From Dudresnaya verticillata (lineage: Eukaryota): 64,000 nt of DNA. The notes beneath the pieces are model-generated. The model ran no database searches, was not told the origin of the DNA, and saw nothing but the letters and a program-made list of their open reading frames with translations. Position 1 is the first letter of the stretch; the number at the start of each line of letters is the position of its first letter. The position numbers were made by a program, and so were the translations under genes. Location: the NCBI GenBank assembly GCA_977862235.1, contig OZ374559.1, positions 1,364,001 through 1,428,000 of the forward strand. The letters run 5' to 3'. Positions 19,626 through 46,751 of the stretch are shown here, piece after piece.

Positions 19626-19709
19626 TTTGCCACAAACTCCTAGACAAGATACCCAACGTAGTCTGCTGTTGCTCGAATGATGTGTTCCCTGCAGGTGAAC
19701 AGAAATTTC

Positions 19710-20078: not shown

Positions 20079-21364
20079 GAATGGGGATTCGGTTTTGTGT
20101 TCTTTGCCGCTCTGGAACTAGAATATCCGTCACGATAAAGTTCTAGTTCTTCCTCTGAAGAGCTAATGTATGGTGATACCATCTACATGCAGACTTGTTG
20201 AGCAGACTGCAAGTACGATCGCTTCCTATTAGCAGTAGTACTAGTAGTAGGTTACTACGCGATAATTGCCTCTGGCCCGGACTCAGTCGCACGGAAGCAG
20301 TCTTTGGTAAGGCACTTTTGGCCTGTTCGCCTGAACGCCTTCCTGTGATGTTACAGTAGTAGAAACTGCAAAACCAAAGCCCTAATAAAGTAATGTTGGT
20401 AACAGTCTTGCACCTAGTATAACAGAAAGCCGGTAATTACGGAGGAGAAGTAAAAAAGACACCTACAGTGGTGCTGATAAATATAGGGACAAGCACCTTT
20501 CTGGCACTAGCGCAAAAACTACACATCCAATCACAAAGCGCGTTTGGATTCAGCATTCCAGGGAGCAACAGGAGAATCAACAGGTGACGGCTCGCTTGGC
20601 GCTCCACCTCGTTATGATAACAAATTGTCGCTCGAGTCGTCGGCCTAAATGAGCTTGAACCAACACCTCCCCTTGGACCTGTCGGCCATGGAGCACTGGA
20701 TATGAGGGGCAGCTCCACACGCTGTGCAACGCACAACGCAGCGGGTGTTCGGGTGTAACCGTAGCGCGAAGCAGAGCGCTGTTGTGACACGCAGAGGAGG
20801 GCGCCCCCGTGCCAGCGTGCGAGTCTGTAATGCTACTGTAATACAGCTGTAATGACTGTGGAACTTGTGGAACAAGCCTGCGAATCCGCTGGAGACCTTA
20901 TAATTGCTTCTCCTTTACCCGAGCCTGCTTCAGCGATGGTCTTTTCATTAGCGGCATCCTTCTGTACAGTTGCTCGCGCACTACTGTTTGCGTTTCCGCC
21001 CGCCTCTCGCACCTCCTTGTTTTCTGCGACCTTGGGCTCCGATGTCTTGATAGCATCTATTGTAACTTCTTCTCCTGATTCAGACCCCAATAAAGATGAA
21101 TCGTCCTTCTTGGATACCTTAATAGCCAAACGGCCGAAACCGCAACCCCCGTTCTGCTCCTTGACACTGCTCACGTCTTTCCCTAGTTCTTCCTTTTCAT
21201 CCTGGTTACCACCACTCTTCCCTTTCCCATCCAGACCGACCTCAGGCTCCAAACGCCCTTTTTTATTTGAGTCTCAAGCCAATTGATGATTAGATCTCTG
21301 GTCGCGTCGACGTCGCTCTTGCTGAACAAGGAAGCAGCGGAAACCTTCTTGATAGAGAACTTCT

Positions 21365-22159
21365 TCAATCCGCCTTCCTCCTTCCTGCACTTAACTGGGA
21401 ACGAGATCTTCGTATGGTACACTTCGCCATAGCGCTTTCAGACATTTTCGTAAAGTAACCCTTTTCACAGGACTTCAAACAGGGTGTCAAGACATAGAAA
21501 CCACATGACACTGCGTCAGACTGACGTGGGCCATCCATCGCCACTCCTAACTCCCTGAAGAACAAGCTTAATTGCTCACGGGCATCGTTGAAGAGACGAA
21601 TGGTTGGAATTTTCCCGGCCTCTTTTTTCAGAAATCTTGCGAGCAACATAACAACGAAACCAACAACTCTTCTGAAGATAGATACGGAGGTGTTGCCGGT
21701 AAGACTGTCAATGTAGAAGAAGTGGGGCTCCTTTAACTCCAATTCATGAACGACATCGTAATTACCGACATCGATTGATTTACCTTCTTTAATTCGCTTC
21801 ACAAGTGCCTTGAAAGCGAGCACCAAGTCGCGAGGAGCGATAAACGTCCTATGTTTCGATTCCGGAATGTAAAACGGGTACACAAACCAACTACTCCCAG
21901 ATGGACATGGTAAATGTTTTCCCGCGCGGCAAAATGCCTCGAATGTCTCAAGAGGGCTACCTTTCCCCTTGGCAAATCTTGTAATGAGATCGGAGCTGTG
22001 GAATGTGTCGCGGCAAAGACACGTCGACTCCTGATATTCCGCAGCCACAATCTTTCCCTTCAGCACCGCAATGCATCCCATGCCCATGAGCATACCCTCG
22101 TCACACAACATGAGAGCAGGGTAGTCATGGAACACGCGGAAGCCGGCGAGGGTCATCAT
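21365..22159 (-). pseudogene. Ulp1/SENP-like (peptidase C48) cysteine protease domain; likely the C-terminal part of a larger disrupted gene (~25.7 kb to ~20.8 kb)
   Basis: Catalytic H-D-Q/C order: VYPFYIPESKH(R)TF ... FFYIDSL ... PRQSDAVSCGFYV. It is flanked by same-strand low-complexity ORF fragments (20833..21252, 22217..22645, 22646..23074). Confidence 0.8.
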
Positions 22160-23868
22160 GGTCCGCCCTTCTGCATATAAGCAAGCAGTGTCATCCGGCC
22201 ACGGATCTAAACCCTTCTATCTGTGCGGTGAGGGCTCAGCATCCGATAACTCAATTACAGAAGGCACAACCTTCTGAACCGCTATAACCTCGACTTTTGA
22301 ACGCTTCTCGGCACTGGGCTCAATCATAATGCCCTTCTCGTCATTGGGTTCAACAGTAGTATGCTTTCGCTTCGCACGGAGGTTTGACTGGGCATGTTGC
22401 CGATTGGATTCTTCTGCCGGCGAATTATCTCCAGCGCTTCCCAACCCAGTAGCACGCTCTTTTCCGTTCCCAGCCTCGTCAGCCTCGTCAGAGTTTCCAC
22501 CATAGTTGTGAGAACGATCCTTTTGAAGGTCCCTACCAGACAGGCGCGCTAAGAAGGCATCCCTCTCCCTGCGTGAGGAGTTTTCTGGAAGATACTTCGG
22601 CTCCAAGGGCCGCTTCGTAAACTCAATACCAGACCAACTGGGCATTTACCCGCTGAAATGTTGGAAGACATCAATCTCCTTAACGCCGGGGTTTCCTTCT
22701 TTGTAGATTCCAATGTACCTGTGTAGCAGAGCTGTGCAAGCTGAAGCATTTCGTTGTCCACTCGCTCTGAGCTGCACTGCTTGATTATTAAGCTCGGCAC
22801 GCGTGATGGGGCGCAGCTGCAACGAGTCGTCGGCAGAGTAACCCGCATGCTTGCCAGAACCTATGTTACAGTCTCCTCCCTCTCCATCGCTTTCCGGTGG
22901 CAGCATAAAATCTTTATCGGAAGACTCGCTGATATCCATATAGTCTCTATCGAGCGCGGTCTGCCCGTCTACACGACTTCTTTTGCGTCCCTTCCTTTTG
23001 GCCATAGTCGGCGGTGACTGTCCAGCTCCAACCATTGTTCTCCCAATACACCAACGATTGAGTTGCAGCCCCACGGGGTACTACTAGAAAAAAATAAGCC
23101 GCAGTTTCGCAAACAACGCAGTAGACAAAGAAAAGTCAGAAACACAACGCTGCGCAATCTGTTCCTGTTTGCGTTCCCACTCAGGTTGCCACTTAGAGAC
23201 CGTTCCAATAACTTGAACCCTGCGACAATAATTGTTGGTTTCAGTCGTCGAGGTGCTAGCCAGCACCATAATAGCAGAAGTGAAAGGCTTGTTGCGGTGC
23301 GTGCGCATGTGGCTCACCAGGTCCCCTGGTTTGAGGTCAGGTTCGCACGAGCAGAAATGAACATTGGAAGAAAGAGGCACGACGGGCACGCATGGCCCGC
23401 GGGCTCAACTGGGTGATTACAGGAATTTCCTTTTTTCAACTCGGTGTTTACCTGACACACGAAACTTAAAATTTTGAAATGTATCGACTCTGCTTGTTTG
23501 ACGAGCAGCTTCGCCAGGTTAGAGCGCAGGTTAACATGGAAACCACGCCCCCCCCACGCCCAATTATCAACAAACATGATGACAGTACACTTTTCCAGCC
23601 ATCATTATTGCCAGAAATAGATATTTTGACATCAGTTCATCATTCTCCACAATAAGGATACCCTCCCACCACTGAGCAGCAATGACGTCATTGGATGTCC
23701 CACGGAGGCCTTTCGCGGGCTAAGGCTTTCTTGTAGCCAGATACAAGTACATGGGAGCGACAAGCTTTTGCCACAACTAAATCCCATGGGCAGTTCAACT
23801 TCACTGCAGATATTATCACCTTTATATCTGCGCAGAGCGCTAGCCCAGCAAGGGAATAATAGAATCAG

Positions 23869-25715
23869 TTAGTCTTCCTTTGAGGCATTCGACTGATCAG
23901 AAAGCTTCCTGGCTTTGTGCCTCTTCTTGTTTCCTCCAGTACATTTGTTGGCCGCACTAATGTAGAGTAAAGCCAGGAGCTTCCCATATACAGGCTCGAG
24001 GACATCGGGAGCTCTCAAACTTGCAATGGCGAGGGAAAGCAATCGCTGCATCTTCGCAACCCAGCGTTTGTCATGCTCATTTCGTATCGAGACAGCCACG
24101 TCGTTTAAATTCATAGGTAGTTTGAACTTTTCACGCGGAGCGAACCTCTTCATATCTCTGCTTAGGCGAATTGCAACCAATAAAGTATCGAACATGTCCT
24201 TGAGAAGGGCTTTCGCGAAGGAGTGTTCCTCTTCTCCTTCAGTTAACACAACAGTCTTCGCTTTATCTGTCTTGAGTTTCCTGATTTTGTGCTCCAAAGA
24301 AGCTACATTATCCAGAAATATATTCAAGTCACATGGAAGCGAGTATCGCATCACACCATTGCAACTCTTTCCCTGTTTGAGTTGCTGTGCACCCGACTGC
24401 GTTGCACGTTCTAGCGTTGAGACGGATTGTATCGCCAACGACGTGCTGACATGAAGAAGATTGCAGAGCTCCAACCACGACTCCACCTCGAGATTGATAG
24501 ATGCGAAGCCCTTCTCAATCTCTCTTACATACTTGTTAACTTTGTTGTAGGTTTGTGAAAGCCTTTCACCTCTATCGACGAGGAATTTCCCAACCTTTCC
24601 TTTCTTTGCAGTGCATGCACCCTCTTCTGATGAAGTAATACCGCAACTTCCATCTTCCAAGCTTTCCATAATAGCCATGCAAACACGAAACGCGCACTGT
24701 GGAAGGATTGCTCGCTGCAATGCACCGTAATTCATCTCTTGATCCCCAGAAAAGAGCGGGAAAAGGTCCCCAACTCTTACGCGAATGACGGAGGGAGTGA
24801 ATATTCGCTTCCAGGAATTATCCACACCTCGAAGAAGTTGAGTAAAATCCATCCAGTTCGAGCCGTAAGAACCATACCCGTAACGATGTAAAATGAGAGT
24901 AAGAGAAAGGCTCAACATGAAGACGGGAGAAAGAGCCACATTCAGGGGGCCCTTCTTGATAGATATCGAGGCATATAAACCGATCACGAATGGCCTTAAC
25001 ATCCCAGCACATGCATCCATCTTGTAGAGCGGGCCCTGGCGTGCTCCAACCTTCGTTGTAAGGTCGACAGTCAAAGACAAATATTATGAGATGTCCTCTG
25101 CTGCGGCCCAGTCAATAACCCGCTTGTTAGTGGTATGGATGCGCATAAAACCATGCCTCCCTCCTCGTATGCCAGTCTCAGGCGTCCGACCGAGGATATC
25201 TCGGATTATCTCTAATACCTTTTGCCTCCTTTCTTCCGGGAGTTTTTCAGCTTCATCAAGTACAATTCACATGGATGCACGCAGCATTGCGACTTCCGTT
25301 CCACCTTTCAGCCCTCCTACTTGCAAATCACCTGCGCCAGTACCCCAGGACGGACGATAATCTGGATGGCACAAAGTACGGAACGACATGTTCAGGCACG
25401 TGTAGAACTGTTCCGCGAGCAACACTCTTCGGCCCCGCAGCGTTTCTCTCCTCGATACCCAACTTCTGTGTCCCGGTCCATGATTGCCCTTTTGCGCTTA
25501 AGATGGCCACGACTCGATTTTTCAGCACAACCCGCATCGTCCGACAGTTGCTGCAATGGAGAAGCTTTTTCGGCTACTTCGTCTTGTGGTTGCGGAACGA
25601 CTCTCTCCTGATGATCTGCACTTGTCACTGCATCTTTGGTTTTTCCATGGCGGACAGCTGCAGACGGGGTTCCCCTACGGCGTCGGGAACTTTCATTGGG
25701 GTCCATTTCGCCCAA
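23869..25715 (-). pseudogene. Uncharacterised protein fragment (403-aa open segment plus upstream in-frame pieces broken by stops)
   Basis: The reading frame of 23869..25080 continues upstream through stops (..VIDWAAAEDIS*YLSLTVDL..). A possible intron end (CTAAC...TAG) at ~23870-23839 links it to further coding-like sequence at 23760-23084. Confidence 0.55.
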
Positions 25716-26909
25716 ACCTGTAGAGGCAAGCGCAAGACGCTTGTCTCGCGTGCCTCCAATGTCTGGTAGATTTCGGAGCCGATCCTATAGCACCACGCGT
25801 GCTGTTCCCGCGTACGTAGTTCTGCACCCAGCGGTTAGCTCTTAAGAGCTAAGAGTTCTTGTCAAAATGAATAAGCCGCAACGTAAACACACCGCACAAC
25901 AAGAACAGAAGTAAGTGTAGCGAGAACGGCAACTTGAGGATACGCAAAGGTCATAGACGATGCCATCTATCCCCAGCTGCGTGGCACTGTGCCGGAGGTG
26001 GCCGTCGACAAAGGAAAGCGGAGAGCAGGCTGGGAGAGAGGAACGACTGGGGTGGCGGGGTGGGTGACGGGTGGGAGGCAACATTTGGGGGAGGAGGCAA
26101 GCCCGGCGATATGCGACTGCAACTGCATTCCAGTGAGGAAGCAAGAGGAAGGAAGAAGGGAGCGAGCAAAAAGTCCAGCCACGAGGATTGGGGCCAGGGC
26201 GCAGCGGGTGGAGACAAATGTGTGGGTGCGCTTCAATCAAATAAAAATAAAAAATAAAATTTCTCTGAGACATGGCTACTCGGAATTACAGATGCCAGGC
26301 GCCAGGGGCATGGCATTACAGAAGCTGACTTTCAGCTGAACTTGCTGAGTACTACTGCTGAAAATCGCTGTAAAGAACACCAGGATAGAACATTCTGATG
26401 TTACCAACACGCGGCAAGGGAGTATCAATTACAAAACATAACACGCTGAGGAGATGAAACTCCAATTGGAGAGCCCGCACCTCTTGTGGGCACATGTTTT
26501 TCACAACTTGTGGAAAAGAGAGCAGCGGAGTCGTCCGTACAAACGAGGGCGGTGCGGCATTGTGGCCGGAGCTGGAGAGCGGCTGTGGCTGTTTGACCAC
26601 AACCCATGGGTGCGGTTTTGAGTAGGTTTCAACAGCGCGTCTGGGGAGGGAGAAGCCGCGGCAGGGTGCAGGTAACACGCGATGGATGGGAATGGATGGG
26701 AAGTAAAAAGGCAGAACGCAAAGAAAATATTGCAACCGTAAGGGACGCCTGAAGGCGGGAAGGGTGGAGAAAATGTATGCTGAGAGATCAGCAGTGTTGC
26801 ACAGGAATAGGATAAACATCATTTATGGGCATCTTCTAGAAGATTAGTTGAGGCCCAAATCACCTAAACCGCAGTACTCCAGTTCCCACGACTGCAACCT
26901 TTGTCGCCC

Positions 26910-29900
26910 TTAGGGAGTGTTTCTGCTTCTCAAGTCATACCCATCCCTATGCCTGTAGATTATGTTAGTTCGCGAATCTACTTCTCGACTTCGTTCGTGA
27001 TCGCGTCTTCCACGCCGCGGAGTAACGTACTCCACGGCCGCACCGGCAGAGTTCTGGAGGCAAGCTCTGCAGTAACTCTCAAGAACGTGGCTCCTCCGAC
27101 AAACTGTAGTGGCGTCACCAACAAGTATGAGCAAATAATTGGCTCTGCTTGTTGCCACATTGATGCGCCGTGAATCAGATAGAAACCCGATATGCACTCT
27201 CCTATTGCTGCGTGTGAGCGATATGATTACAGTACCACGTTCCAGACCTTGAAGAGAATCAATTGAAGATATGTCGACATTTAAGCGTTCTCCCCAACCC
27301 CTTCTCGAATAGGATGACTTATTCAAGTAATGCTGCAGGAAAGCAACTTGAGAACGATAAGGCGCTGTAACAAAAGTATCACCCCGTAGTAGTTCGTCCC
27401 CACCATAGAGTCTTGCAATGCTGCAGAGACGAGATAGTGTCTCATCAATAACTTTGGCTTCCAGCGTGTTTGTGAACGACCCTCTTCCTCTGCTGAGCTC
27501 GAACCGATCCATCGTAACGGATGTATCAATGAAGGTGAACGGAGCAAATGATCCCATGTCGGCAGAAGAGTCGTTGTAGGGACGAATGTAGGGATCACTA
27601 GACAAGGGGTGTTGCACGACGTCACGGTAAATCACCTTCGACTGTATCCTGCCGATGTCCGGATGCGTGCGATATTGCTGGTACAGCCAAAGAACAGGGC
27701 ATCGTCCACGATGAACCATTCTCTCAAACAACGACATGATTTGGTACTTGAAGTAGTCCTTGTATTCAAACCACTTGTTGTGACCTAGGAAGTAGGAGAA
27801 GGCATGTTCGTACCACACGAGGGGTAGAAGTTGGTGATGGTCCCTAGGCGTTACAAGTGAGAACGACGCAAACCCCTATGCAACCTAGCGACGCTAACAA
27901 TCGGTATACGTGCTTCCGACTCTGTGGCATGCGAACCTTCGTCCGAAATAACTACGTCGAAGCCGACACGAATATCATGAAGAACTTGGCTTGCAGGTGC
28001 CGAAAGCGTCGAAAGAACGACAAAACATTCTCGAGACATTGCATGGAGACCTTGTGTAGCCTCGCTTATTTCATCTTTGTCCTTTGTAGGTATACCTCCG
28101 TTCAGCTCCAAGAAATCAGCTTCGAAGGGAGCACTCTTCTCTTCAATCGAAATATGCTGCAATTCACTATACGAGTAATGCTATCGTGCTATTCGAAGAA
28201 TATTAGGGAATTTCTTGCCACCATTCCCGTCCGGCATGCCGTTCAATAGCTTCCGGGCGATGTGGTCCACCGCCTGATTTGAGGAACAACACACAAGAAT
28301 GCGGGGCCCATCTGGGTTATCGGTGAATCTCAATGTGTCGTCTTCGCAGTTAAGTAAATCCTTCGCAGACGCTCCTTCGTAGATATGCCCGGCAGTCGAG
28401 TGATGAAGTAGCGAAGTAATTAAGATACAAATGGTTGTGGTCTTCCCTGTACCAGGGGCCCCACAATCTGCGAATACGACGAGGACTCCGCTTTTAAGTT
28501 GCCCATGTCGCGCAGAATGCACGTTATTGCGTTCTTCTGCGAAGGGTTACAAACACTTTCATGCAAGGAATCCAAATACTGTAGACAACCGGGGTCAACA
28601 CCATGTCGTAGGTCCATTCGAAGCGATTTGTCGTAAATCTCCTCCCTCCTCTCACAAAATGCTCCATCGAAGTCCTCGAGCTCTTTGCCAAACAGGGTGC
28701 GTCGAATCTTCTCAGGTGCAAGAGGCATGTAGTGAATTGCTCTGAATTCCCTGTGTATCGCAACCAGTGACTCAAGGGCCGTTATATGAAGAACATCTCC
28801 CTTCTCCGGCGTCCATGCCTCTGCACGCACCTTGTTACAACAGATTCTCGCAGCTACCTTGTCTATTCTTCCTTCCGCACCCATGAAGTCAACATCTTCA
28901 TCGTCGTAGGTGACACTACGAGAAACGAAGAGCATAACATGCGAACACGTCGAGTTTCTTGAATAAGACTCACGTTGAAAAGATCCAAGGCACAGTGTAA
29001 CCCCTGCGAGCTCTGAAATTGTACGCTTGTTGAATCTCCGGTCACGGGTAGCGCACTTGAGGTTGGTAAGGAGACTACCAGACTTAGCCCTCTTGACAAT
29101 AAAACAAAGCATTCCCTCCTTTCGAGCATCAAGCGCCTCTCTTAAAATTTCGCTGTTGTAGGCTGATTCTCTCCGAAATAATTCCGGCACGGCCTTCTGC
29201 ATTGCACCTTGGATGGCGAAGAATAATTCAGCGTACAGAAAGACCTTGAGATGGTCACAATACTGCGCTATATGTGTTGAAGCAGTTGTTTCCGCGAGGA
29301 TAAGGCTTTTGTTTCCAGTTAAGAATTTCTGTACCCAATCCATGTCCCCAACATCGGCAATAGCAGCCTCTCGCGTGGCAATACGGTCTCGTGGGTCAGC
29401 ATTGAGAAAAGTACATGCAGCATGCCAGATTTCGAGCTCGGTGTTGAGCTCATCCGCGAGGCGCTCTTCCAAGTCTTTCGGATATTCTGACGAATCATTC
29501 GGAACATTCCGTAATCCATCGGCGACTGCGTAAAGGTCTGAATAGAAGTTCATTCTCTCATTGTCCGACTCAGGATTTTCGAGGTAAAATGGTTCTGTAC
29601 CCTGTGGTTCGCCGTTGATGGCATTTCGCTTCTCCTGAAAGTTAGTTAGAAAGTCACTTTGTACGCGAAGTGCGTCCAAAGCAAAACGCCTCTTCCTCTT
29701 TCCACGGCACTTCGGTGCATTAGGTTGCGAGCTTCCAACAAATTCAGCAACTTTATCCCCATCGGTTCTTCGGCTGCCTTCGCAATAACATGAGTTATGC
29801 TCCTCGCTTGTCGATCTGCCACCAGCAGGGCTCTCCTTCTTTTGTTGGTCATCAACCTCCATGCCCTCCAAGTGAATGTCATTGCTGACCAAACCCGGCT

Positions 29901-34286: not shown

Positions 34287-37200
34287 ATGAATTCTGCACC
34301 AGAGGGAGTTGCGCGATTCCTTGTTGATGGTGAAGTTTCAGCTCGAGTTGGGTCCTTGCTACAGAATACCGCAAACGCCTCTGGCCGCGGTCCAGAACAT
34401 TTCCCCGGGCAGCTATTGTTGGAACGTAATGCGCCGTTATCGCGTGGAATGCTTCGGAGCCTCACCGCAACTCTGAACTCCTCTGTTCCTTTACGAAGCA
34501 GGGATAGCCTCTTGGAAGGCTGATATGCAATGACTGGCACAAGTGTTGAGTAGAAGGTCACGAAATTTGCGAGGTCTAATCCGACCTCGTTTTCATTCGG
34601 TCCCCGCTCTAAGCGAGAGGTTATAGCAGACCCTTGCTCTGCGTCTTGGAGTACCCCTGCGGGAATATTTTCCTTCTCAGATGGCACTAGGCTGCGAAGG
34701 GGCGGAAGTTTCAATTCAGGAGGGCGCAGAAGGGAGGCAACAGATGCGATAAGGTCTCAATACCCGTCCAGGAGTAGGTCTGTTTTATTTGGACACCTTC
34801 TCGGAATTTATGGTAGTGAAGAAGGGTTAGTCACCATGCTCCTTTCCATTCTCACCGAGGAATGCCCCACGGTGAACCTAGCGGTGTTGTCACAGATGAA
34901 ACAGGACTTACAACAACTCTTTCAAGACTGTTCAAAAGTAACATGTAGAGGTTTGGAGGTGATACCGGGACCGCATATCGCACTTTGTGCTCGCTTCTCT
35001 ACATCGGCATCCACAAGACCATCCGGAGGACAGGGGAGGGCTTCAAAGTCAAAGGAACGCCACACTGCTGCACTTGGATTGATAGCGCTGGGTTCGGTCG
35101 GTGTTCTTGTATCGGACAGACAGAGAACAGAATGCTACTCGTCTCCGACGGTTTTGAGAAGAGCTGCTGTGATCATGTAACAGCAATCTACACTTTGTTA
35201 GACAATCTCGCATCTATTTCTAGTAATGCAACGGTGTTATCAAGAAGCGTTTGTGGGAAAATATTGACGAGACTTGCCCGTGGTGCTTACGAAGACGGGT
35301 ATATGAAGGATTTGTACAGAGCCTTCCTATGCTTTCGGTACACCATAAGTCAAAGGTATCTGTTGTAGCAAGGAAGGAGGGAGGCAGCAATTCCGAGCCT
35401 TGCTTCGTACCATTGCGATGTGTCTCGCCAGATGGAAGCCACTTTCTTTGCGCGTTTTGTGACACTGAGATTGATAGTCGCCATTGCCAGCATGTAACAG
35501 AACTGAGAGCGCTCTCCGCGGGTGAGCCCCCCGTGATTGAGTTCTTCTCCGCAGGCAGTGCTTCGACGCTGCGATCTGGTCCTCTACCAGGCGGTTTAAA
35601 TTGGACCCCATGGATGATGTGGAGTCTGAGTCTACGTACCCCTTGTCCATCGTCATCTGTTCTGCAAGTATTCGTATTGATCGTCTCGTTGCTCAGCTGT
35701 ATCAGATGGGGCTGCCATACGTAGTCTCAGCTCCAAGCATTTGCTCCACTTGCGGTTCGGTTTGAGTGGAATCTACTCGACGCTTTCGAGAAGGCATCGT
35801 GCTGTCCACAGGCGGAAGCTGTCGAATGCATGTTGAAGACTATGACTGTAGCAAGCAGGACTGCACGGCGACTGTTCATTCCGAGGGCCGATATCACTGG
35901 ATCCTCTTGCTTTCACTCTCGTCTGCGGCGACACACGTACTCCTACGAAGAGAGCTGATTGGCGTAGTTCTAAACAATGGGACGCTTAACAGTTGAATGA
36001 GTCAGTACTACTCCGAGGTCGTAGCAAATGTGGACGCTGGACTTGTCCCTGGCATACAACTTGGGAATGAAACCACATCTGGTGTTCATGATAGGTGGAA
36101 GGCACAGCTGGTATCAAACTATGAATATTTCATGCCGCAGCTGTCCCCTTCCTTGAGACAGGTAATCTCTCAGTTCTTAGAATCTAACGGAGGGTCAGAA
36201 GCATTGTTGCATAGCATGCGCAATGTGTGGCTAGAAGGGATGAATGTCCAACCCGAGAAGCAAAGCTTATCACACGTTACAGATGGCGACACCAATATCC
36301 TCGGGCATCACCGGAAGTGGAGAACGACAGCTGCTACACAAGATGTGCAAGGGGATGTGCCAGCTAATGACAATGACCCCAGAGCCAAGTCTTTTTACCT
36401 GTGATACATGCGTCGGCGAGAATGGGAGACTTCATGCTGTCTGCACCGACGGAATCTGGAGTGGGTATCAGAAAAAGTTGGCATGTCCGTTCTAAAACAT
36501 CTCACAGTCGTGTGAGCCTTTGAACCCTTCCGGTAATTCTGGTAATATGGGCAGAACACCGAAGGGCCCCATCGCCGGATTGCTGTGCCGTGAACGAACT
36601 GCTGTGTTTCTAGAACTTGCATTGAAGGGTTCTCCTTGCATTGATGTCTCTAAATCAAGTGTTTCGTCAGCAGTATCGGCAATTCGCTTAGCAGACCCAG
36701 ATATTATTCCTCACCAGTATTGCTCCGAGTCAATGTGTGGGAAGAATGCCCATGATCACTTGGACGACATTGGAGAACAAGATGTGCTTTATCATCTGCG
36801 TACGTTGACTCGAACGGTGTTTGACGCCAGTGTGGTATGTGTTCGTTTGTGCAGGGCGTTGCTGAAATATTTGCGGTCTTGCAAATCAGAGTCACAGCGG
36901 CGGAAGCGAAAGAGTAGCGACACCGGCAGTCGAGCCTCTACAGAAGTGCCGTTGCAGAAGAGGGTGAAAGACGCTATTGTTCGCTTCATCACATCATGCA
37001 GTCCAGAGAAGCTTGCAACGGCGGGAAGGCAGCAGGTTTGTTGGCACACAAGGCTTGGTGCCGTTGACAGCTCCGAAACGCAAGCATTACTGAAGGATTT
37101 GCTGTCTATGTTCCGAGTGCTTATTCTTTCTCCTGGTCCGCAGATGATCGCCCGTGCACATCTCCCTAGTTTACGAAAGGTAGCTAAGTGTTGTGCCGAA

Positions 37201-38240
37201 GTTTCTGACGGAAACGAGGCATTCCATGACATACAGAACATCTTCTCTGCAGAAGGTCCGCTAGCTTGCTTCGGGGAAAAAATGTCCTTCTGCACTTACG
37301 CTTGTTGACAGCCGGATTGTTGAGTGTAATCGAGTGTGAATGGTATTTACCTGGTCTGACGAAAGCGATTGGTAGGACGCTTGAGGACATTTGTCGTCGC
37401 ATATCGGAATGGTATGCGGTTTATGACAACTTGCCACGGACGTCTTGCTCAGCAGCAGAGTCTGCTGTTGAATGGAAGAGTAAGAGACAAGAGGAACTTC
37501 GTATCAAGTACCTTGCCTTGCCGGGAGCGAGTGATCTGGAAGGGCCGGTTCCAAATGGCTATGTTACGGCATGCAGAACAGGGGTGTTTTTCCCTGCGCA
37601 TCCTCAACTGCGGCCTTTGGCATTTTCGGATCAGTTAACGATGCATTCCAATGTGGACGTTTTTGGTGTTTGCTCTAAAGGATATCTTCAGAAGAAAAAT
37701 ACGTTCATGCCGGGTGCATTGACGTTTTGTTGCTCTTGTGCCCATCCCGTTGTAATGGGATTTCGTGTGCTCTATAGGAATGAGGGCCCGCGCGCCGTCC
37801 TTGACGTCATTCAGTCTCGATTTGCTGACCCACCACGAAATATTCTGTATGATTTTGCATGCGGCGTTTATGGTAGTGCTGCGCACACACTATGGTGGGC
37901 AATTGACGACACAACAATATCCTCTGACGCCTTGCACAGCTTAAACCACAATTGTTCCCCAACGTTCACACCAGTAGCTCACAACGAGTTGAACATGGTT
38001 AACGCTGTGGCTCAGGAACAGAGAAATCGCGGAATCTCATCCATCGAGTCAAGCCTTCGTTACTGCGGGCAAGAACTTTACATCGCGCTACTGGCTTACC
38101 ATACATCTATCCTTAACCTGCGAGCGAAGACTAAGGCTTCTCCTTCATTCGGCAACAGAGAGGTCGACATTTCCGAGAAGGATCTTGAATGGGCTTATTT
38201 CCATTGCCTTAAAATGAAGTATTTGTGCTGCAGTTCTTAG
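34287..38240 (+). pseudogene. KDZ-superfamily (Kyakuja-Dileera-Zisupton/HMGXB3-like) DDE transposase with SWIM-like and CxC Cys clusters, frameshifted
   Basis: SWIM-like FLCAFCD..HCQHV. CxC-like ICSTCGS..DCSKQDC. First Asp in FTCDTC..VCTDG. Then GVFFPAHPQLR, CSKGY..PGALTFCCSCAHPVVMGF..EGP, ILYDFAC, D..H..NHNC and N..AQEQRN. The 5' start is uncertain. Confidence 0.8.
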
Positions 38241-38569: not shown

Positions 38570-38671
38570 TGTGTGCGTGCGGCTTATTCCTATTGTATCA
38601 AACTGCTACTCAGACGTCATATGACGTCTAAGTAGCAGTTTTATACACTAGGAATAAGCCGCACGCACACA
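38570..38671. repeat. 102-bp zero-spacer palindrome (51-bp arms, 3 mismatches)
   Basis: TGTGTGCGTGCGGCTTATTCCTATTGTATCAAACTGCTACTCAGACGTCAT|ATGACGTCTAAGTAGCAGTTTTATACACTAGGAATAAGCCGCACGCACACA. Confidence 0.97.
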
Positions 38672-39486
38672 GTCACGCAGTAGAGCACACAGGTTAGTTC
38701 GAAGGGACAAGCGCGGGAGCGCGGCAGAGCGTGAGCGAGAGCGGGAGTGCGGCGGTGAAGAGAGAGGAGAGAGAAGGAGTAAAGCACCCAGACGCCGAGT
38801 CATATCGGCCCGTGCTAAGCTCTTGTCTCCCCTACTCAGACGTCATTTCGTGGTTCGTCACTGTGCCAAAGGAGTACTAGCTCTTTTCTCCGCTATAGCG
38901 GCTTTCAAGTATGCGTACAGGCAGTCCCGTTCGCGAGCCAAATTGGTATTTTTGCGGACAGTATTGACTTGGCGTAACATAGAATATCTGTGACGATATT
39001 GGGCAAGATAATATTGGGTTGGTCCCACAAACACGTGATGTCCGAATATTCTATTTCACTACATCTTCCAACATCCACATCTTCAATTTCCTACCTACAT
39101 AACACACAAATACTAATTTGAGGCTATTGGTAAACGCATAGGGGCTGGACGGGTGGATGTGTGCAACTCGGACCGAGAATGTACTGAGGCAACACACCTG
39201 TCATGTGCCTTTTGAAATATGGTTGATTTTTCGGAGGAGGAAGGCTGCGCTCATTGGAATCTCGAGTTCTCCTCCATACCGTAATAGAGCCGTTCAGCAT
39301 CACTCAGACGACGTGTGAAACAACTGCTTCTCTCTCTTGCTCCAAGGCACCATCTTCTGAAGAAGAGTGTGGTTTGAGCACGGATCTGCTCTCGCCATCT
39401 ACCTTCTTCGATTTGTGCATAGCGCTGCATGACAACTCTTCTTTTCTATTTCTTGCAAGCGGCTTATTACTTTCTATCTGTGCACA

Positions 39487-41621
39487 GTGCATGCACTGCG
39501 TACGGTCAGCCTTGACTTGAGTAGGTACCCGTTTCTGCACTGCACAGATATCTGCACACCTACGATGACTATTCGACACACTGGGGCCATTGCTACCCAG
39601 GCCCTCAACTGTCTCAGTTGGGTTTACGGAAACTCATGGGAAGAAGAGAGCATGCCGCGTGACGTTGCTGCAGTCGCATTAGCGTTGACGACGGCGATTT
39701 CTGCTTGCATGTTTGTGGAAGACGCGATGAATGCGAGCCGCAATCAAGGAAGTGGTTCTGTTTCGCTTCTGCTGTTCGCGAGAGCAGAAAAACTGGTGCA
39801 ATCCCCTACCGGCTCTAGGAACAACAGCAGGGCCAGCCCTGGAATTTTGCGGAAGAACTTTTATCTCTGGGGTCTGACAGAGTACTCTGATGCTGTGGAG
39901 GAAAGGGAAAGTTACAACACGCCAAGGAAAGAGGATGAAGATCCCAACCTGAGCTCAGTCCTCACTGCAGGAGAGGTTGCGCGCAATGATATAAGCAATA
40001 CAGCGATTCCTCTTGATCCTTCTGAGATATTGTCCAGAAGCCCAACTGAATTGACAATTGACCCAAATGCTAAGTCATCAGGCATACGGGCTCCGGATCC
40101 ATGTACCCCCGCTCATAGTAGCACACCGCGTATAATTACAGACCAGATGGAGAGAGGTTCGCAGGGGGAACGCTCAAGAGGCAAAACTCCTGGCCCGGGA
40201 ATATGGCTGCCTCCGTCCTTGGGGGGAGGAGCAGAGCTGATACGAGGAGTGGCCGAAGAGAATAGGTTGACTGAATTACATTCAAAGGACGTGTTCAGAA
40301 TCCCCGATGAGGTATCCTGCATGCTCACTTCCTATCTTCTCGACGCTTTTGGACACGCTAATCACACAGGAAACCTCGACGAGTCCGGATATAAGTATGA
40401 AACCATCCAATATCTTGAGATTCAACAAGCTATTGCCGCATTTCATGAGGTTGAGTATAGCCGCCGCATGGCGGAAGTTTCCGAGGGTGCCCAGGAAAAG
40501 AAAAAGGATATCACTGACCTCATGTACAAGAGCTTGGTCCCGGAGCAGCTCTTCGGAAACAGTATTTCCAGTATTTCCGTCCCTTTTGTGTCTTTGCGGC
40601 ATAGCTTCGAGATACTCTAAGGAACTAAAACGAACCGTTGTCTCTTCTTTCAACGTAAGAACTAGGAAGGTTTTGAATCTGCAGATTTCTAAACCAGATC
40701 GGAACAGCAAGGACAAAAATTTCTCCATGTTGTGCGTTGATGTTTTTGTTCGGGCGAGGATAGCAGTGCTTTAATGGCCTTGAAGAAGTTGGCTTTTAAA
40801 GGGAGAACTAACGTTGCACGTTGTGCACTACATCTTGCAGCAGCGAAGTCTAATTCCGCCAAATCCAAGAAGGGTAATGTCAGTGCAGTGCAATCTTCCG
40901 GCGGTGGTAACAAGTATCTTCAGGAAGCTGGTGATCATACCACAACCCAGCATGGGAATCTCTCGGGAAATATCGCCACGACTGTATGCGGCGGACCGGC
41001 AGCATGCGTTATGAAACCACGGGCTGTCTGTACTCTAATACCCCGGTCTCAGATAACAAAATTGTTGAGGTTGGTGTTGGTATGATATACCCATTGGTGA
41101 CGTTTATGGATGCGGGGATGATCCCTACGGACTCGGTCATGGCGCGTTTTAATTCCATCTTTAACTCGGAGAGCATAGATGCGGATATTAAATCGAAGGC
41201 TATGTCGCGGCCAGTTTTGTGGAAGTGGAATGGTGTGAAGAGAGTTATTGCAATGGGCATGTATAACCACCCGGTTGGTACTTGCATCATTGTCGAAGAA
41301 AAACCGTGGGATGCTGCAGGGACCTGCTCTACGTCACTAAGAACCCGAAAAAGAAGGCGTCACTTCACGATGGGAGTAGAACTCTCAAGAGCTGTTGTTA
41401 TATGCGGACTGCAATTGAATAATAATGTGCATGGAGACACTCATTATCCTTACTCTGAATGGTACGACAGCCAAAGAGCCAAGTCGTTTCTCCTGTCCCA
41501 TTTTCCAGGCGGTAGTGTCCCGACAAAATTGACCGACGCAGTTGGTTCCACTTGCCTGCTATGGGATGGGGCCATGATCAAAAATGATACACTGGAATGC
41601 AGGTTTACAGAGATGGTATGA
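39487..41621 (+). pseudogene. Uncharacterised protein, split across overlapping frames
   Basis: Consecutive plus-strand ORFs 39487..40620, ..40774, 40774..41085 and 40986..41621. No recognised domain. A possible splice donor GTATGA at ~41616 points toward the Pif1 ORF. Confidence 0.55.
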
Positions 41622-41898
41622 GCTTTGTGTTCACAAATTAAGAATTTCTTTTTTGCACCCTTGTATCTCGTATTACGATCTGCACGTACTGTCCTCTCTC
41701 TAAAGTCCTAGAAGACACTAATTTTCGCGCCAAATGGAGTATTACTGTTTTTGGTACATGTGTCATCCATGGCAATCCTTCGTGCATGGAAGAGAGATGA
41801 TGAAATTTGTCTGCCACCATAGTCAGGTCGACTTTGTGCTTTGCCTCTCCAAGTCGTATTCAAGGATCCTCTCAAGTCAATCGTGTTATTTCCAAAGA

Positions 41899-43309
41899 AT
41901 GCAGGCGTTTGGGGTTAACCTAATTAGATCCGGGGATGACTCTGATTGCGACCATGGCCAACTACTCGATGCTACGCAGAACAAGATACTCGATGCGTTC
42001 ATGGCTAGGAGAAGTGTGGCAATAATTGGTGGAGCAGGATCGGGGAAAACATTCTTGCTTCAAGAAATAGTTAAACGTGCTTCAAGTGCTGCTGGAGGCG
42101 TAATGGGGGTGGCAGTCAGCGCTTATGCAAATGAGGCTGCCACAAGGATCGGAGGTTGTACACCTCACTCGCTTTTTGGTGCCAAAGCCGGATGGCCTGC
42201 ATGGACTAAAGATCTTCTATGGAAGTCGCTGAAAGATTTTCCGGCCAAGATACGACGGTTGCGAGATATTCGGATTCTCATCATAGATGAAGTTTCCATG
42301 ATAAAGAACGAGATTGAAGCCATTGAATTCGTTCTGAGAAAGCTTACTGCGTCGGAAGAGGAAGGTGCCCGGCCATTACGCGGACGTCAACTGGTAGTCC
42401 CGGGCGATCCATTTCAACTTGAACCGATAGATGTATGTGACGGGAGCTGTTTGTATCAAACGTTTTTCGAGTCGCGAGTTTGGTTCCTAACATTCACAGC
42501 GTATGGAGACGGTGTCGTTGGGATTCTGGATGGAAACCACCGACAATCAAATGATACCGAGTTTTACCGAATGCTTCGCAGGATTAGGTACGGAGGAGTG
42601 ACGGAAGAGGGCTGCAGCACGCTTAACCGGACGAGCGCAAATTCTAAAATGGAACCCCCCGCTGGTCACACGCGCCTCTATCTAAGGTACCAGGTTGCCA
42701 AGATCAACAAAGAACGACTCGCAAGACTGCCTGGTGAGCTAGTGCGTTTCGAAGGGAGAGATAGCATCATTTCATCTTGCAATGTACAAGCGCTTCAACG
42801 CCGCCTTGAGATGATGGCTAGCGAAGTAGTTCAGCTGAAAGTTGGCTGTACAGTGATTCTGACGAGAAAATGCGGTGAACACAACCTGGAACTCGTTGGA
42901 AGGTTGGAGGCTTTGGCTCCGGTGGTGGACAGGGAAAAATCCAAGACGCGATAGTAACATTGGAGTCATGGAGAGCTGAGAGTGAGGGTGATCGTATACA
43001 TGCGTCTGATGTTATTAATGTCAAGGCAGTTGGATTCCAGGTTCACGGCAATGATCTGCGCGTCATAGGTACTAAGTACAAATTCCAGTACTAGTTGCAT
43101 ATGCCATGAAGATCCATAGAAGTCTGGGTATAGGTTTGGATGCTGTTGCCATTGACTTCACTGGGGAGACGCAGTGGAAACCAAACGGGAATGTCTACGT
43201 TGGACTCTCCCGTTGCAGGACCTTGATCGGGCTGTGGGTGAAGGGATTGAAGACAGATATCGTTTCTGTTAGTTGTAGGGGAGGAAAGTTATGGAGACAA
43301 TTAAGATGA
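41899..43309 (+). pseudogene. Pif1-family SF1B DNA helicase, frameshifted near the C-terminus
   Basis: IIGGAGSGKTFLL, AA..IGGCT.HSLFG, LIIDEVSMI, GRQLVV.GDPFQLEPI, NHRQSNDTEF..ML.RIRYG, LKVGCTVIL, AYAMKIHRSLG, VYVGLSRCRTL.GL. Confidence 0.88.
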
Positions 43310-44566
43310 TTCGTGAAAACCTACCCGATCGAATTATTGGAGAAGAAGCACTCGATAGGTACTTGGAGGAGATCAGGCATGACAAAGAGAACAACCTGGT
43401 CTGTCCAGTCGCCCTACCCGCGAAACGAACAAGGGAAGTGCTCCATGCATCTGGACACAGTAGGAGTGTCACAGGGGATACCCTAACTTCTAATCAATAC
43501 TCGATGGTTAGACGGACTGGAAAACGAATGTTGAGTCGCGCTGCTCTAACAGACACATCCCAAAATTCATCGGAGTAAGGGAAGTCCCTTCGATTAATGA
43601 AACTGAAACGTTCATGGTCGTACATTTCTTCGTATCCATGAAAACATCAGAACAGCCAAGACGTACCCAAGTTTTTTTATTGCGGCGACTGCTGATGTAT
43701 ATTGTGTGACAGATGTCCACACGGTGCATCCCTCTACACTCTCTTCCCCGGTGAGTGTTCTGTGCTTCTGGTCTTGTGTGCTCTGCTCGTGTGCTGTACT
43801 CTTGTACGCGAAAGGCAAAGTAATTAGGTAATGTAGTTTGTAGCGTAGAAATCAATTCCTCGTAAGGTAAACATTGGGGTTTGTACCACTTAGGATTCAT
43901 AGCTACCGTACCAACAACTACCTTCCTTTTGGTAGACAAAGGTAAATTCACCAACCTGTTTTTGCTCCAACTGATACAGGTGGCGGTTATCCATTTCACA
44001 CTGCATACTCATTGCGATTAACTCATTGCGTTTCTAATTCATTCAGAAATTACCGCAATGTTTAATATGTTTGAGAAGCCATTCTCGTGTCTTAAACTCG
44101 AATACAGTGTTGTTGAATGTTTTCTGTTGCAAAACCATCGCTTGGTAGATTGTGGTGTTTGAAAGATTCTTAAATGCCAGTTTATGATTTTTGTAGAGGC
44201 TGTCTGCTTTTATTCAATGGAAGTACAACAAGAATGTTTAAATATTGGTAGAGAATGTTCGCGTGAATTATTCACAGAAAATACGAATTGAATGTTTAAT
44301 AAATTGGAACACGCTTTCAGATGCATGTAATTCCTAAAAATGGCAATTAGAGTGTTTAATAGATGTAGAGCATCTTTCTATCTTTTTCAAGTCTTGTAAA
44401 GTGTGTATGGAATTTTTGTACTTCATTAGCGAAGAAGAATTAAAATGTATTCATCAAGAGTTAAGAACCAGTTTTTTATGTACAGTTCTGGGGGGGAATG
44501 ATCGAAACGGCGGCGAATTGCTGTGGCTTTTTCACCGCAGCACTGCAGGCCCAGAGGCTTGGAAGG

Positions 44567-44745
44567 CCGACAGCTCGAACCGCAATAACCGTCGGGCACC
44601 CGACGGCTCAAACCGCAAACGCCGTCGGGTACGTTCTATTTTGGGACCCCGCCGGCTGATCACGGTATACCGTCGGGTAGAAACTCTGTTCGAACCGTCG
44701 GGCCTGTATTGAGCCGGTGTAGGCCGACGGCAAGTCTGTCGACGG
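44567..44745. repeat. Cluster of CCGTCGG/CCGACGG motifs in both orientations (subterminal-repeat-like)
   Basis: Exact copies at 44589, 44600, 44622, 44670, 44695 and 44724, plus near-copies at 44567 and 44739. Confidence 0.7.
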
Positions 44746-46751
44746 TGCTCCCCAGCTTGTTAAATTAGAATTAGAATTTTTGTCGCAGCTCATCTCGACT
44801 TTGCTCACTTTGCTACTCTTACTTCTCGCTTCGCTCGTTCGCTTCGCTTCTGGCTTCGCTTCTGCATGATAGTCGTGCTAAGTTGCCAGAGCACCATCTC
44901 AACTCTGCATTTTTGTAAATATTGAAGTATAGGCTACTGCGTCGTTGCGAACATAACATCGTAATATTAGTACATCATCTCTACGACAGCCGTTCGAAGA
45001 GCTGTGTTCCGTCGAGAAAATAGTATCCTATGTCTACGTCAACATTTATTTAACAGGAGAGGCAGGAGGGGAAGGATTAGGAAGCTAGAAGTTCAACTTC
45101 GGTCTGGGGGCTCTTGGTGCCGTCCTGCAGCGAGGCCAGCAGCAACACAGCCCAGCCAGAACCCACCTACGACTCAACTGCAACCGCCGCCGGCGCGCGC
45201 GTGTGCTGTGGGTGCCTGTCACAGATGCGTTACAAGCGTTAACCCGCCACAGTATTGTTCCACGGGGTCCGCTGTCCACCACAGTAAGGCATCGACAGTA
45301 AGCATTTCGCATTACACTACTACATTGCCTGCGTTGCAGGCTCGTTGCAACTTCTTGCCGCGCTGTCCCGATGCCGATGCCCGAACCCCGGCGGGGGCCC
45401 TGTGGGCTCGCATAGGCCGCCTGGTCCAACGGGCAGTGGCGTTCTACGCTCGTATAGGCCGACGGCACGAAGCGGCACTGCACTTAGTCAAAAAGCCGTT
45501 CTCACGTAAACTTGCTATTTCCTTTATGCCTATGCAGCCCACCCCCTCCTTAATCATACACCTCCCTCTCTCCCCCTTCCCCTCCCTCTTTCACCCGTCC
45601 CCTGTTATTTCAATAGTTCCCAGGGAGGCGCTACAAGCGAATCTAGAAACCGTTTTATAAAAACTACAATCGTTTAGCCACGGCATGCATTTCCAACGAA
45701 GCAACAATGCGAACGCCACGGAGCGGAACGAACGGCGCGAGATGAGAAGCGCACGGTCGCAAAGACGCACACGAAGGAGCAGACGGGACCGCAAAGACCG
45801 AAAGCCAAGGAGCCGAAGGGAGTGGTGTGTGAGCGCGATGAACGGAGAACCAAGGCACTCGGAACCAGCGCAACACGAAGTTAAAATAACCCCCGCGGCT
45901 CGCACCCCGTCTCCGTGATCCGCGCGTGCAGGCGTCGACGGACGGTGTCGAAGCCCTAGCCTGTTTTAAGTACACGGAATATCTCTCTGATTAGCCAATA
46001 CGAAGGCTCCATCGCTAGGAACTTAAGGCGAGTAGCGCCCGCCACCCTCAGTAAATCAACCCCAAAGCATGGGCTCTGCAGCTGCCTTCCCCCGCGTCTG
46101 ACCCATGAGCTCGTCGCTCAGTGTGATAGAACGGGCGTTGAAGCCCTGTAAGGTGCGACGTGCACACGAGTCCTCTGTTAGGAATGGCAGGCGCACAACC
46201 GCCCGGGTGATACGGCACTATGCCATTGGGGGATTAACTATGACCGCAACATCGCGCCAAGCGCACTGCTGGCGGATGTTTGCACCGCGGCGCCCGACAG
46301 TGACGCCGCGCTCGCCTCGTGGCCTGACCACTCATTCCTATCTAAGGACATATCATAACTTTATTGTACAGTATTAGCTAAGTATTAGCATTAGAGCTCT
46401 AACTGAGCTAGTAGCACCTTTTCGGCGCTCACCGTATTTATGGGGCCCCTGAGTAGCAGGGGCGCGGCACTAAACCACCAGCGGTCTGTGCTTTCGGGTT
46501 TCCCCTTTTTGGAGACTTACAGTGCTACCGCTACAAACCCCCTTGGGCGTCTACAAGCCCCGTCGTCTACGACGAACTGCTCTAGACGGCTGGGTTCGCC
46601 TCCCCTTTTCCACTCTTCTGAGGGCTTTAAGCCCTATCAAGTCTCTACCAAACCCCTTTACCGAGCTACCATCTACGCAGTGGAGTATCTTCTAAGACAA
46701 CTGTCTTGTTGTGTTGTTGTCCTCGTTGACTTAGAAGTCATTCTACTACAG

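What the first reader, a model, noticed from the sequence alone, without database searches (positions are those of the whole stretch)
20833..44760. Candidate ~24-kb cargo-carrying KDZ-type DNA transposon: transposase + Ulp1 protease + Sen1/Upf1-like helicase + Pif1 helicase
Seen: four large, similarly decayed transcription units with no recognisable housekeeping gene among them. Two run leftward (unknown-Ulp1; long N-terminus + Sen1/Upf1-like SF1 helicase) and two run rightward (SWIM/CxC-KDZ transposase; unknown + Pif1) from a central region at ~32.6-34.2 kb. They share an upstream motif, and a subterminal-like repeat cluster lies at the right edge. Established: Zisupton elements couple a KDZ-type transposase with SWIM and Ulp1/SUMO-protease domains, and Pif1 helicases occur in Helitrons and some other DNA transposons. 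I do not know of a described element carrying a KDZ transposase with both a Pif1 and a Sen1/Upf1-type helicase. Inference: this is one giant mobile element with its own desumoylation, R-loop/RNA-unwinding and DNA-unwinding toolkit. The termini were not identified.
Basis: partly seen in the sequence, partly recalled or inferred. Interest (0 to 1): 0.9.

Follow-up and report, generated by a model that had tools for sequence, protein, structure and literature searches.

The report
Giant red-algal transposon carrying two helicases
This is a dead 25-kb copy of a DNA transposon, likely from a red seaweed, whose ends enclose a transposase, two different helicases, a likely SUMO-protease gene and genes of unknown function; the Pif1 helicase has been inherited together with the transposase across many related elements, so it likely serves their movement.

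Summary
The element spans 20,566-45,619 (25,054 bp), between two copies of an 8-bp target duplication. Its ends share the design and partly the sequence of intact relatives: short inverted repeats set 7 nt inside each end. It holds five decayed units, not four: Ulp1-like, an unknown ORF and a Upf1-like SF1B helicase (leftward); a SWIM-CxC4-KDZ-type transposase and an unknown ORF plus Pif1 (rightward). Each unit follows one 10-nt motif found nowhere else in the window. Pif1 lies beside the transposase in 54 of 80 related loci. The two gene trees agree (17 of 18 supported splits), Pif1 is under purifying selection, and three complete 11-12-kb relatives have 7-bp target duplications. Transposase plus Pif1 is therefore a real mobile lineage, which ten literature searches did not show. 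Ulp1 is intact in two relatives but only motif-level here. The Upf1-like helicase was seen in no relative and cannot be called Sen1. The role of Pif1 is inferred: most likely it helps refill the long donor gap by copying. Verdict: new variant of KDZ transposons, interest 0.63.

The parts
20558..20565 (+). Left copy of the 8-bp target-site duplication, CCAGGGAG
   Evidence: Identical to 45620-45627
20566..45619 (.). Whole element, 25,054 bp
   Evidence: Only pair passing exact 8-bp TSD plus >=14/18 inverted repeat at offset 7 in the searched end regions; 0 of 300 shuffles; also top pair of a whole-window scan
20566..20590 (+). Left end: 7 outer nt starting CAA, then an 18-nt inverted repeat
   Evidence: Same design and similar sequence as the left ends of L008, L009, L023
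20626..20694 (+). Deeper sub-terminal inverted repeat, left arm
   Evidence: 74% over 72 nt to 45406-45477; score 59 against shuffle maximum 37 and next real control 46
20833..23035 (-). Unit 1: decayed gene with low-complexity N- and C-terminal parts and a likely Ulp1/C48 protease domain at about 21.45-21.83 kb; the catalytic His position reads Tyr
   Evidence: ORF pieces; D, Q and C spacing aligns with C48 domains of L001 and L004. No library hit.
23093..23103 (-). Shared motif TGCGGCTTATT, 57 nt before the first in-frame ATG of unit 1
23869..25706 (-). Unit 2: decayed gene of unknown function; the last 404 codons are open and predicted helical at low confidence
   Evidence: no Pfam or NCBIfam hit, PHROG only E>=0.16; AlphaFold pLDDT 39
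25870..25880 (-). Shared motif, 163 nt before the ATG of unit 2
26910..32478 (-). Unit 3: decayed gene of about 5.6 kb; long unknown N-terminus plus Upf1-like superfamily-1B helicase core at 26.9-28.55 kb
   Evidence: AAA_11 E 1e-13 and 5e-8, AAA_12 E 1.5e-38; PDB UPF1 E 2e-18, SEN1 2e-13, IGHMBP2 4e-12
32534..32544 (-). Shared motif, 55 nt before the first in-frame ATG of unit 3
34172..34182 (+). Shared motif (one-base variant), 104 nt before the presumed transposase ATG
34287..38240 (+). Unit 4: decayed transposase of about 1,200 aa; two SWIM-like Cys/His clusters, a CxC4-like cluster and a KDZ-type core with D (about 36,448), D (YDF motif) and E (EQxN motif) retained; at least 7 breaks
38570..38671 (.). 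102-bp near-perfect palindrome carrying two inward-facing copies of the shared motif
   Evidence: 94% complementary; folding z -18
39458..39468 (+). Shared motif, 96 nt before the ATG of unit 5
39565..41621 (+). Unit 5a: decayed ORF of unknown function ahead of Pif1; either a fusion partner or a separate gene
   Evidence: two short collinear weak matches to L001:2133-3089 (best E 7e-4)
41722..43310 (+). Unit 5b: Pif1-family helicase, broken near its C-terminus
   Evidence: PF05970 E 4e-17; 44% identical to the intact Pif1 of L004
44564..44760 (+). Cluster of short CCGTCGG/CCGACGG repeats and a third copy of the deeper sub-terminal repeat
45406..45477 (-). Deeper sub-terminal inverted repeat, right arm
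45595..45619 (+). Right end: 18-nt inverted repeat, then 7 outer nt ending TTC
   Evidence: Resembles the right ends of L008, L009, L023
45620..45627 (+). Right copy of the 8-bp target-site duplication

Best explanation
This is one decayed 25-kb insertion of a KDZ-type DNA transposon, likely from a red seaweed, whose lineage carries a Pif1 helicase as a core gene, and the Pif1 likely helps the host copy the long element back into the gap left after excision. Shown: the ends, the 8-bp target duplication, the gene content, co-inheritance of Pif1 with the transposase, purifying selection on both in relatives, and loss of open frames here. Inferred: the transposase binds the recessed inverted repeats and joins the element into a target cut with a 7-8-nt stagger, as DDE enzymes do. 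Inferred (about 45%): the element-encoded Pif1 supports long-tract repair synthesis from the sister chromatid, so a move of 11-25 kb becomes a full-length copy gain rather than a deletion derivative; this rests on the recalled role of yeast Pif1 in D-loop migration. Inferred: the 10-nt motif switches all five units on together. Ulp1, the Upf1-like helicase and the unknown ORFs are lineage-specific accessories that likely counter host silencing (SUMO removal; unwinding of element RNA or RNA-DNA hybrids). About 0.93 that it is one element, 0.85 that Pif1 is functional for the lineage, 0.45 for the gap-repair role.
For: End rule taken first from relatives, then found once in the window with an exact 8-bp duplication; 0 of 300 shuffles. 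7-bp duplications in 3 of 4 relatives with both ends held. Pif1 in 54 of 80 loci; the 26 without it hold 0.1-4.4 kb downstream while Pif1 ends 2.0-6.6 kb from the transposase. Trees of 27 families: 17 of 18 supported splits shared in each direction, Mantel 0.92, 0 of 2000 permutations. Pif1 dN/dS 0.12-0.20 in 9 of 9 measurable pairs, like the transposase at 0.09-0.22. Motif 7 times inside, never outside. C48 above cut-off in L001 and L004.
Against: Only one copy is available, so no empty site or second insertion was seen. The duplication is 8 bp here and 7 bp in relatives, and L045 has both ends but no duplication. Two Pif1-less loci hold 4.3-4.4 kb downstream (L030, L048), above the median distance of 3.5 kb. 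The SF1B helicase, unit 2 and the relatives' third gene are not shared. No shared upstream motif was found in relatives. No host red-algal PIF1 was available as outgroup, so separate captures in the GC-rich and AT-richer hosts are not excluded. Nothing here tests the role of Pif1.
Confidence: 0.72

Rival explanations
1. Same element, different mechanism: copy-out-paste-in. The transposase nicks one end, Pif1 unwinds the element while the host copies it, and a circular intermediate is inserted, as recalled for bacterial IS3 and IS256 elements.
For: The outer 7 nt of the two ends are not inverted copies, which fits unequal treatment of the ends. Pif1 is as constrained as the transposase. Helitrons use Pif1 for a copy-type mechanism (PMC8788227, PMC10288648, passages).
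Against: Weak or absent terminal repeats also occur in KDZ elements without a reported helicase (Kyakuja, PMC12730594; KDZx1, PMC11343200). No end-to-end junction was seen, though none was searched for systematically.
Confidence: 0.3
2. Pif1 is core, but the Upf1-like helicase and unit 2 are one-off captured passengers with no role in the element.
For: No match in 80 related loci, no homologue for residues 150-544 of the ORF at 28,420-30,054 among proteins of 953-2,720 aa, and only weak viral or phage hits.
Against: Both genes carry the same upstream motif as the transposase and Pif1 units, which a recent passive capture would not. The closest relatives' contigs are only 4.7-10.4 kb long, too short to exclude such genes.
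Confidence: 0.3
3. The region is a chance nest of separate elements and host genes, such as an 11-kb transposase-Pif1 element next to an unrelated leftward block.
For: The right half alone has the size and order of GC-rich relatives (11-14 kb), and a third repeat copy lies at 44.67-44.77 kb.
Against: One exact duplication and matching ends enclose both halves. No further end-like repeat was found near 33-34 kb. The motif is shared by both halves. The helicase is too distant from UPF1 (E 2e-18) for a normal orthologue, by recalled conservation of UPF1.
Confidence: 0.06

Closest known systems
KDZx1 of Cryptococcus deneoformans and Zisupton-type KDZ elements (PMC11343200, passages read)
   Same: SWIM + CxC4 + KDZ transposase layout, 8-bp target duplication, no long terminal inverted repeats, extra ORFs of unknown function.
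   Different: 6.4 kb with two ORFs; the word helicase does not occur in that paper's main text. Here 25 kb, with Pif1 and a Upf1-like helicase.
Giant KDZ elements of Ectocarpus (to 30.3 kb) and Chlamydomonas (31.7 kb) (PMC12477816, passages read)
   Same: Size range, algal host, additional genes, frequently pseudogenised transposase.
   Different: No helicase cargo in the passages seen; supplementary family tables were not read.
Kyakuja and Dileera of fungi (PMC12730594, passages and section 3.2.1 read)
   Same: 7-bp (Kyakuja) or 8-bp (Zisupton, Dileera) duplications; Kyakuja ends start with CA and lack TIRs.
   Different: Their cargo is TET/JBP dioxygenase. Ends here finish in TTC or CAC, not TG, and have inverted repeats set 7 nt inside.
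Red-algal giant Plavaka/Mutator/Zisupton elements with PAG1-3 (bioRxiv 10.1101/2025.02.11.637652, passages read)
   Same: Red-seaweed DNA transposons with several dedicated accessory genes; Zisupton is mentioned in Bangiophyceae.
   Different: Accessory genes are methylase-SET and ParB-oxygenase; helicase, Ulp1 and KDZ have 0 occurrences in the main text. Supplements are closed.
AcademH and KolobokH (seen only through PMC10799480 passages; the AcademH paper is not held)
   Same: DDE-type DNA transposons that encode a helicase.
   Different: Different transposase superfamilies; their helicases carry DEAD/Helicase_C domains, not Pif1 or Upf1-like superfamily 1.
Helitrons (PMC8788227, PMC10288648, passages read)
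   Same: Pif1-family helicase in a mobile element.
   Different: There Pif1 is fused to an HUH Rep and no target duplication forms. Here Pif1 is separate from the transposase, and target duplications are present.

Membership tests
KDZ (Kyakuja-Dileera-Zisupton) DNA transposons | KDZ transposase domain (PF18758) | tested here: inconclusive
   No direct hit for window pieces. Among relatives from one phmmer search, 15 of 63 hit KDZ at E<=0.05, 2 above cut-off, and 2 of 23 hit weakly; 86 of the 185 stored proteins were scanned. Membership is by transitive homology.
KDZ (Kyakuja-Dileera-Zisupton) DNA transposons | N-terminal CxC cysteine cluster | tested here: met
   Close relatives P0026 and P0154 hit CxC4 (E 7e-5, 1e-4, below cut-off); 3 of 63 distant ones pass the cut-off. 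The window region 35.6-36.0 kb aligns to that stretch at 38-44%.
KDZ (Kyakuja-Dileera-Zisupton) DNA transposons | Conserved acidic triad of an RNase H-fold transposase | tested here: inconclusive
   D of the YDF motif, a second D before the His motif and the E of EQ are invariant in 14 sequences; the upstream xDG is kept in the window. That these are catalytic is recalled. No PDB match; the fold was not modelled.
KDZ (Kyakuja-Dileera-Zisupton) DNA transposons | 7-8-bp target-site duplication | tested here: met
   8 bp in the window; 7 bp in L008, L009, L023; none in L045.
Zisupton (strict) | Terminal inverted repeats at the very ends | tested here: not met
   Inverted repeats start 7 nt inside; the outer 7 nt differ. 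A search for true terminal repeats with a duplication found nothing convincing.
Zisupton (strict) | SWIM and SUMO-protease domains in the transposase protein itself (recalled, Bohne 2012 not read) | tested here: not met
   SWIM-like Cys/His motifs are present by eye, but the Ulp1-like domain is a separate gene 12 kb away on the other strand, and a separate gene in L001 and L004.
Zisupton, Dileera or Kyakuja clade | Placement in a tree with reference transposases | not testable with these tools
   No named reference sequences were held.
Helitron | HUH Rep fused to Pif1, no target duplication | tested here: not met
   No Helitron Rep hit in Pfam on the element ORFs scanned; L004 Pif1 is a stand-alone 507-codon frame; duplications are present.
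Ulp1/C48 protease | His-Asp-Cys triad with Gln, PF02902 | tested here: inconclusive
   Asp, Gln and Cys align; the His position is Tyr. Profile E 0.017; no Pfam hit; model unusable.
Sen1/senataxin | SEN1 N-terminal domain and closest similarity to SEN1 | tested here: not met
   No SEN1_N hit on the N-terminal ORFs; the C-terminal piece scores higher to UPF1 than to SEN1. Upf1-like superfamily 1B in the broad sense is met.

The most novel reading that the evidence does not exclude
A distinct, ancient red-algal lineage of eukaryotic DDE transposons moves by a helicase-driven replicative route, using its own Pif1 to copy itself out, and its largest members run a co-regulated five-gene programme that adds a Upf1-like RNA helicase and a SUMO protease to defeat host silencing.
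Probability: 0.2. Interest if true: 0.86.

Novelty: new variant of a known kind. Interest (0 to 1): 0.63.

Why it matters
Among transposons, Pif1 is treated as the mark of Helitrons. Here it is a conserved, co-inherited partner of a DDE-type transposase that makes target duplications. That affects annotation, since Pif1 copies in red-algal genomes need not be Helitrons or host genes. It also opens a direct test of how very large DNA transposons gain full-length copies: intact 11-12-kb relatives with defined ends exist (L008, L009, L023). The 25-kb copy shows how such an element grows by adding accessory genes under one upstream motif.

Tried and rejected
No whole genome is held, so copy number and empty sites could not be tested. 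No sequencing run was listed; this is no evidence either way, and read laying could not be used. A first search for terminal repeats at the very ends plus a duplication gave only chance-level pairs; the ends appeared only after the recessed-repeat rule was learned from relatives. The 20,626/45,477 repeat and the 44.7-kb cluster were considered as true ends and rejected: no duplication flanks them. Single-sequence AlphaFold models of the Ulp1-like ORF and unit 2 had pLDDT 34 and 39, so no fold search was run. Homologue searches for part of the helicase N-terminal ORF and for the Ulp1-like ORF found nothing; both were limited by length class and word sharing. Viral-contig scans gave no transposase or Ulp1 relatives and one weak helicase hit. 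The relatives' third gene has no match in the window. No shared upstream 8-mer was found in relatives (upstream regions were available for only 11 transposase, 25 Pif1 and 9 third genes of 25 families). GC at synonymous third positions is uniform in the element (0.45-0.51) but overlaps a host gene and a Gypsy ORF, so it does not discriminate. No Rfam hit. dN/dS for window versus L004 is saturated and was not used. L001 and L003 were left out of the trees because only about 100 Pif1 columns are held. No complex prediction was run, as no binding is claimed.


Full report
Setting. The window is a repeat-rich eukaryotic sequence with Gypsy and Copia remains on both sides of the finding. No genome is held for it and no sequencing run was listed. 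The closest named relatives of the transposase are from Chondrus crispus (52% over 314 aa) and Gracilaria domingensis, so the host is likely a florideophyte red alga. That is an inference.

Genes. Pfam finds AAA_11 and AAA_12 in three pieces at 26.9-28.5 kb and PIF1 at 41.7-43.0 kb. The ORF at 37.2-38.2 kb has no Pfam hit, but a search with its relative P0001 returned 730 proteins at E<=0.001. Intact relatives of about 1,200 aa align across 34.6-38.2 kb, and eight window pieces cover positions 45-1127 of their 1143-position profile in order, so the gene is broken at least seven times. Of 63 relatives scanned, 15 hit the KDZ domain at E<=0.05 (2 above cut-off) and 6 hit CxC4 (3 above cut-off); a first set of 23 gave only sub-cut-off hits. 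The transposase is thus KDZ-type by transitive homology, with SWIM-like and CxC4-like clusters. The SF1B helicase scores E 2e-18 to UPF1, 2e-13 to SEN1 and 4e-12 to IGHMBP2 and has no SEN1 N-terminal hit, so it is Upf1-like without a closer name. The Ulp1 call is the weakest. No library detects it. Aligned to two C48 domains from related loci, its Asp, Gln and Cys fall in register and the His position reads Tyr (profile E 0.017).

Shared motif. GCGGCWTATT occurs 7 times in 64 kb, all between 23.1 and 39.5 kb, against 0.12 expected. Five copies lie 55-163 nt before the presumed ATG of five units, on the coding strand; two lie in a 102-bp palindrome. This makes five units, not four, and ties both halves together. 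Whether it is a promoter or a splice signal is open. Relatives showed no such shared motif.

Related loci. A metagenome scan confirmed 215 stretches and kept the best 80 loci, which fall into 39 families. Five loci are 42-45% GC; the others measured are 60-67% GC, which suggests a Bangiales host by recall, untested. Pif1 lies beside the transposase in 54 of 80 loci. The 26 without it hold 0.1-4.4 kb downstream, while Pif1 ends 2.0-6.6 kb (median 3.5) past the transposase, so most misses are short contigs; L030 and L048 are less easily excused. L004 has transposase, intact Pif1 (44% identical to the window's) and Ulp1; L001 has a Pif1 end, transposase and Ulp1. No locus has the SF1B helicase or unit 2, but the nearest contigs are only 4.7-10.4 kb.

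Co-inheritance. For 27 families with enough of both genes (window and L081 included; L001 and L003 left out), the two trees share 17 of 18 supported splits in each direction, Mantel 0.92, and 0.91 for the 25 GC-rich families alone. Walker A is kept in all 27. Pif1 dN/dS is 0.12-0.20 in nine pairs, like the transposase. Pif1 is therefore a maintained part of this lineage. A single origin across both host groups is not proven, as no host PIF1 was available.

Ends. A direct search for terminal repeats with a duplication failed. Comparing flanks of relatives then showed their design: seven outer bases starting CAA at the left and ending TTC or CAC at the right, with the inverted repeat beginning inside them. 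L008 (12.2 kb), L009 and L023 (11.2 kb each, one family) have exact 7-bp duplications; L045 has both ends but none. In L009 and L023 the repeat can also be read as 8 bp if the last C is counted with it; in L008 it cannot. Applied to the window, the rule gave 20,566-45,619 with CCAGGGAG on both sides, CAA and TTC ends, and 14 of 18 complementary bases at offset 7. None of 300 shuffles gave such a pair with an 8-bp duplication; with 7 bp, 1 of 300 did and the window itself gave none at the strict offset. It was also the best pair in the whole window. The right end resembles those of L008 and L023 in sequence. A deeper 72-nt inverted repeat lies 60 and 142 nt inside.

Mechanism. The duplication shows integration at a staggered cut, as expected of a DDE transposase (established knowledge). 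What Pif1 does is not shown. I favour help with refilling the donor gap from the sister chromatid (about 45%): yeast Pif1 supports long repair synthesis (recalled), and an 11-25-kb element gains most from complete copying. Copy-out through a circle is the main rival (about 30%), helped by the unequal ends. The roles of Ulp1 and the Upf1-like helicase in countering silencing are guesses from family function. This copy is dead, as every unit is broken.

Literature. Ten full-text searches were run. None showed a KDZ element with Pif1 or a Upf1-like helicase: Pif1 with Zisupton returned two papers on other topics (listing only), and no listed paper held both Pif1 and a KDZ name (30 of 87 listed). 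I read passages of PMC12477816, PMC12730594 (plus section 3.2.1), PMC11343200, PMC5751038, PMC8788227, PMC10288648, PMC10799480 and bioRxiv 10.1101/2025.02.11.637652. Iyer 2014 and the AcademH paper are not held; Bohne 2012 is recalled. Repbase and the supplements of the Ectocarpus and Bostrychia papers were not seen and could already list such families. Earlier notes of this scan mention KDZ elements with other helicases in a sponge and a dinoflagellate; these are unchecked leads.

Verdict. The element is real and bounded. Giant KDZ transposons with accessory genes are known, so this is a new variant, not a new class. The solid new part is the conserved transposase-Pif1 pairing with defined ends; the two-helicase, five-unit form rests on this one copy. 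Interest 0.63.

Noticed in passing
L007-L081 (for example L013:8870-11809, L042:10390-14031, L081:8555-11248, all minus strand): GC-rich relatives carry a conserved third gene facing Pif1: a conserved block plus a long Gly/Ala-rich tail, found in 29 of 81 loci, with no Pfam, PHROG or NCBIfam name in the copies scanned.
   Followed up: partly
L081 (11.5 kb): A near-complete transposase-Pif1-third-gene element sits in a bacterial metagenome-assembled genome; most likely eukaryotic contamination of the bin.
   Followed up: partly
window 38570-38671: 102-bp palindrome made of two inward-facing copies of the shared motif region; possibly the fold-back scar of a lost sixth unit.
   Followed up: partly
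window motif sites 23093, 25870, 32534, 34173: The motif contains CTTAT or CATAT followed by a T-rich run and an AG within about 10 nt, so it could be a branch point and 3' splice site rather than a promoter.
   Followed up: no
L001:7464-8891 (-) and L001:2133-3089 (-): Two further unnamed genes in an AT-richer relative that also has Pif1 and Ulp1; the second weakly resembles unit 5a.
   Followed up: partly
L045:5324 and 5967: Left ends of two different families lie head to head, 643 nt apart; L008 also has a Pif1 fragment upstream of its own left end, suggesting insertion near or into relatives.
   Followed up: no
window 54815-58511: A 1.5-1.7-kb inverted duplication at 96-98% identity, with a Copia polyprotein ORF at 58494-62222 and a second fold-back at 61940-63014; either a real LTR rearrangement or an assembly artefact.
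   Followed up: no
window 13905-20079: Decayed Gypsy element just left of the transposon; one LTR is interrupted by a 691-bp repeat (14024-14714) that also occurs at 6009-6699.
   Followed up: partly
window 7016-8386 (-) and 10246-11469 (+): Likely host genes: a Cys-rich protein with a tectonin propeller, and a Cys-rich protein with a Thr-rich 54-bp tandem repeat.
   Followed up: no
window 25087-25398 (-): A broken part of unit 2 has a Gly-rich stretch followed by a Walker-B-like VLDE word; no Pfam support.
   Followed up: partly
window 4483-4900 and 46334-46751: 418-bp direct repeat at 94% identity, 41.9 kb apart, outside the element; probably LTR pieces.
   Followed up: no
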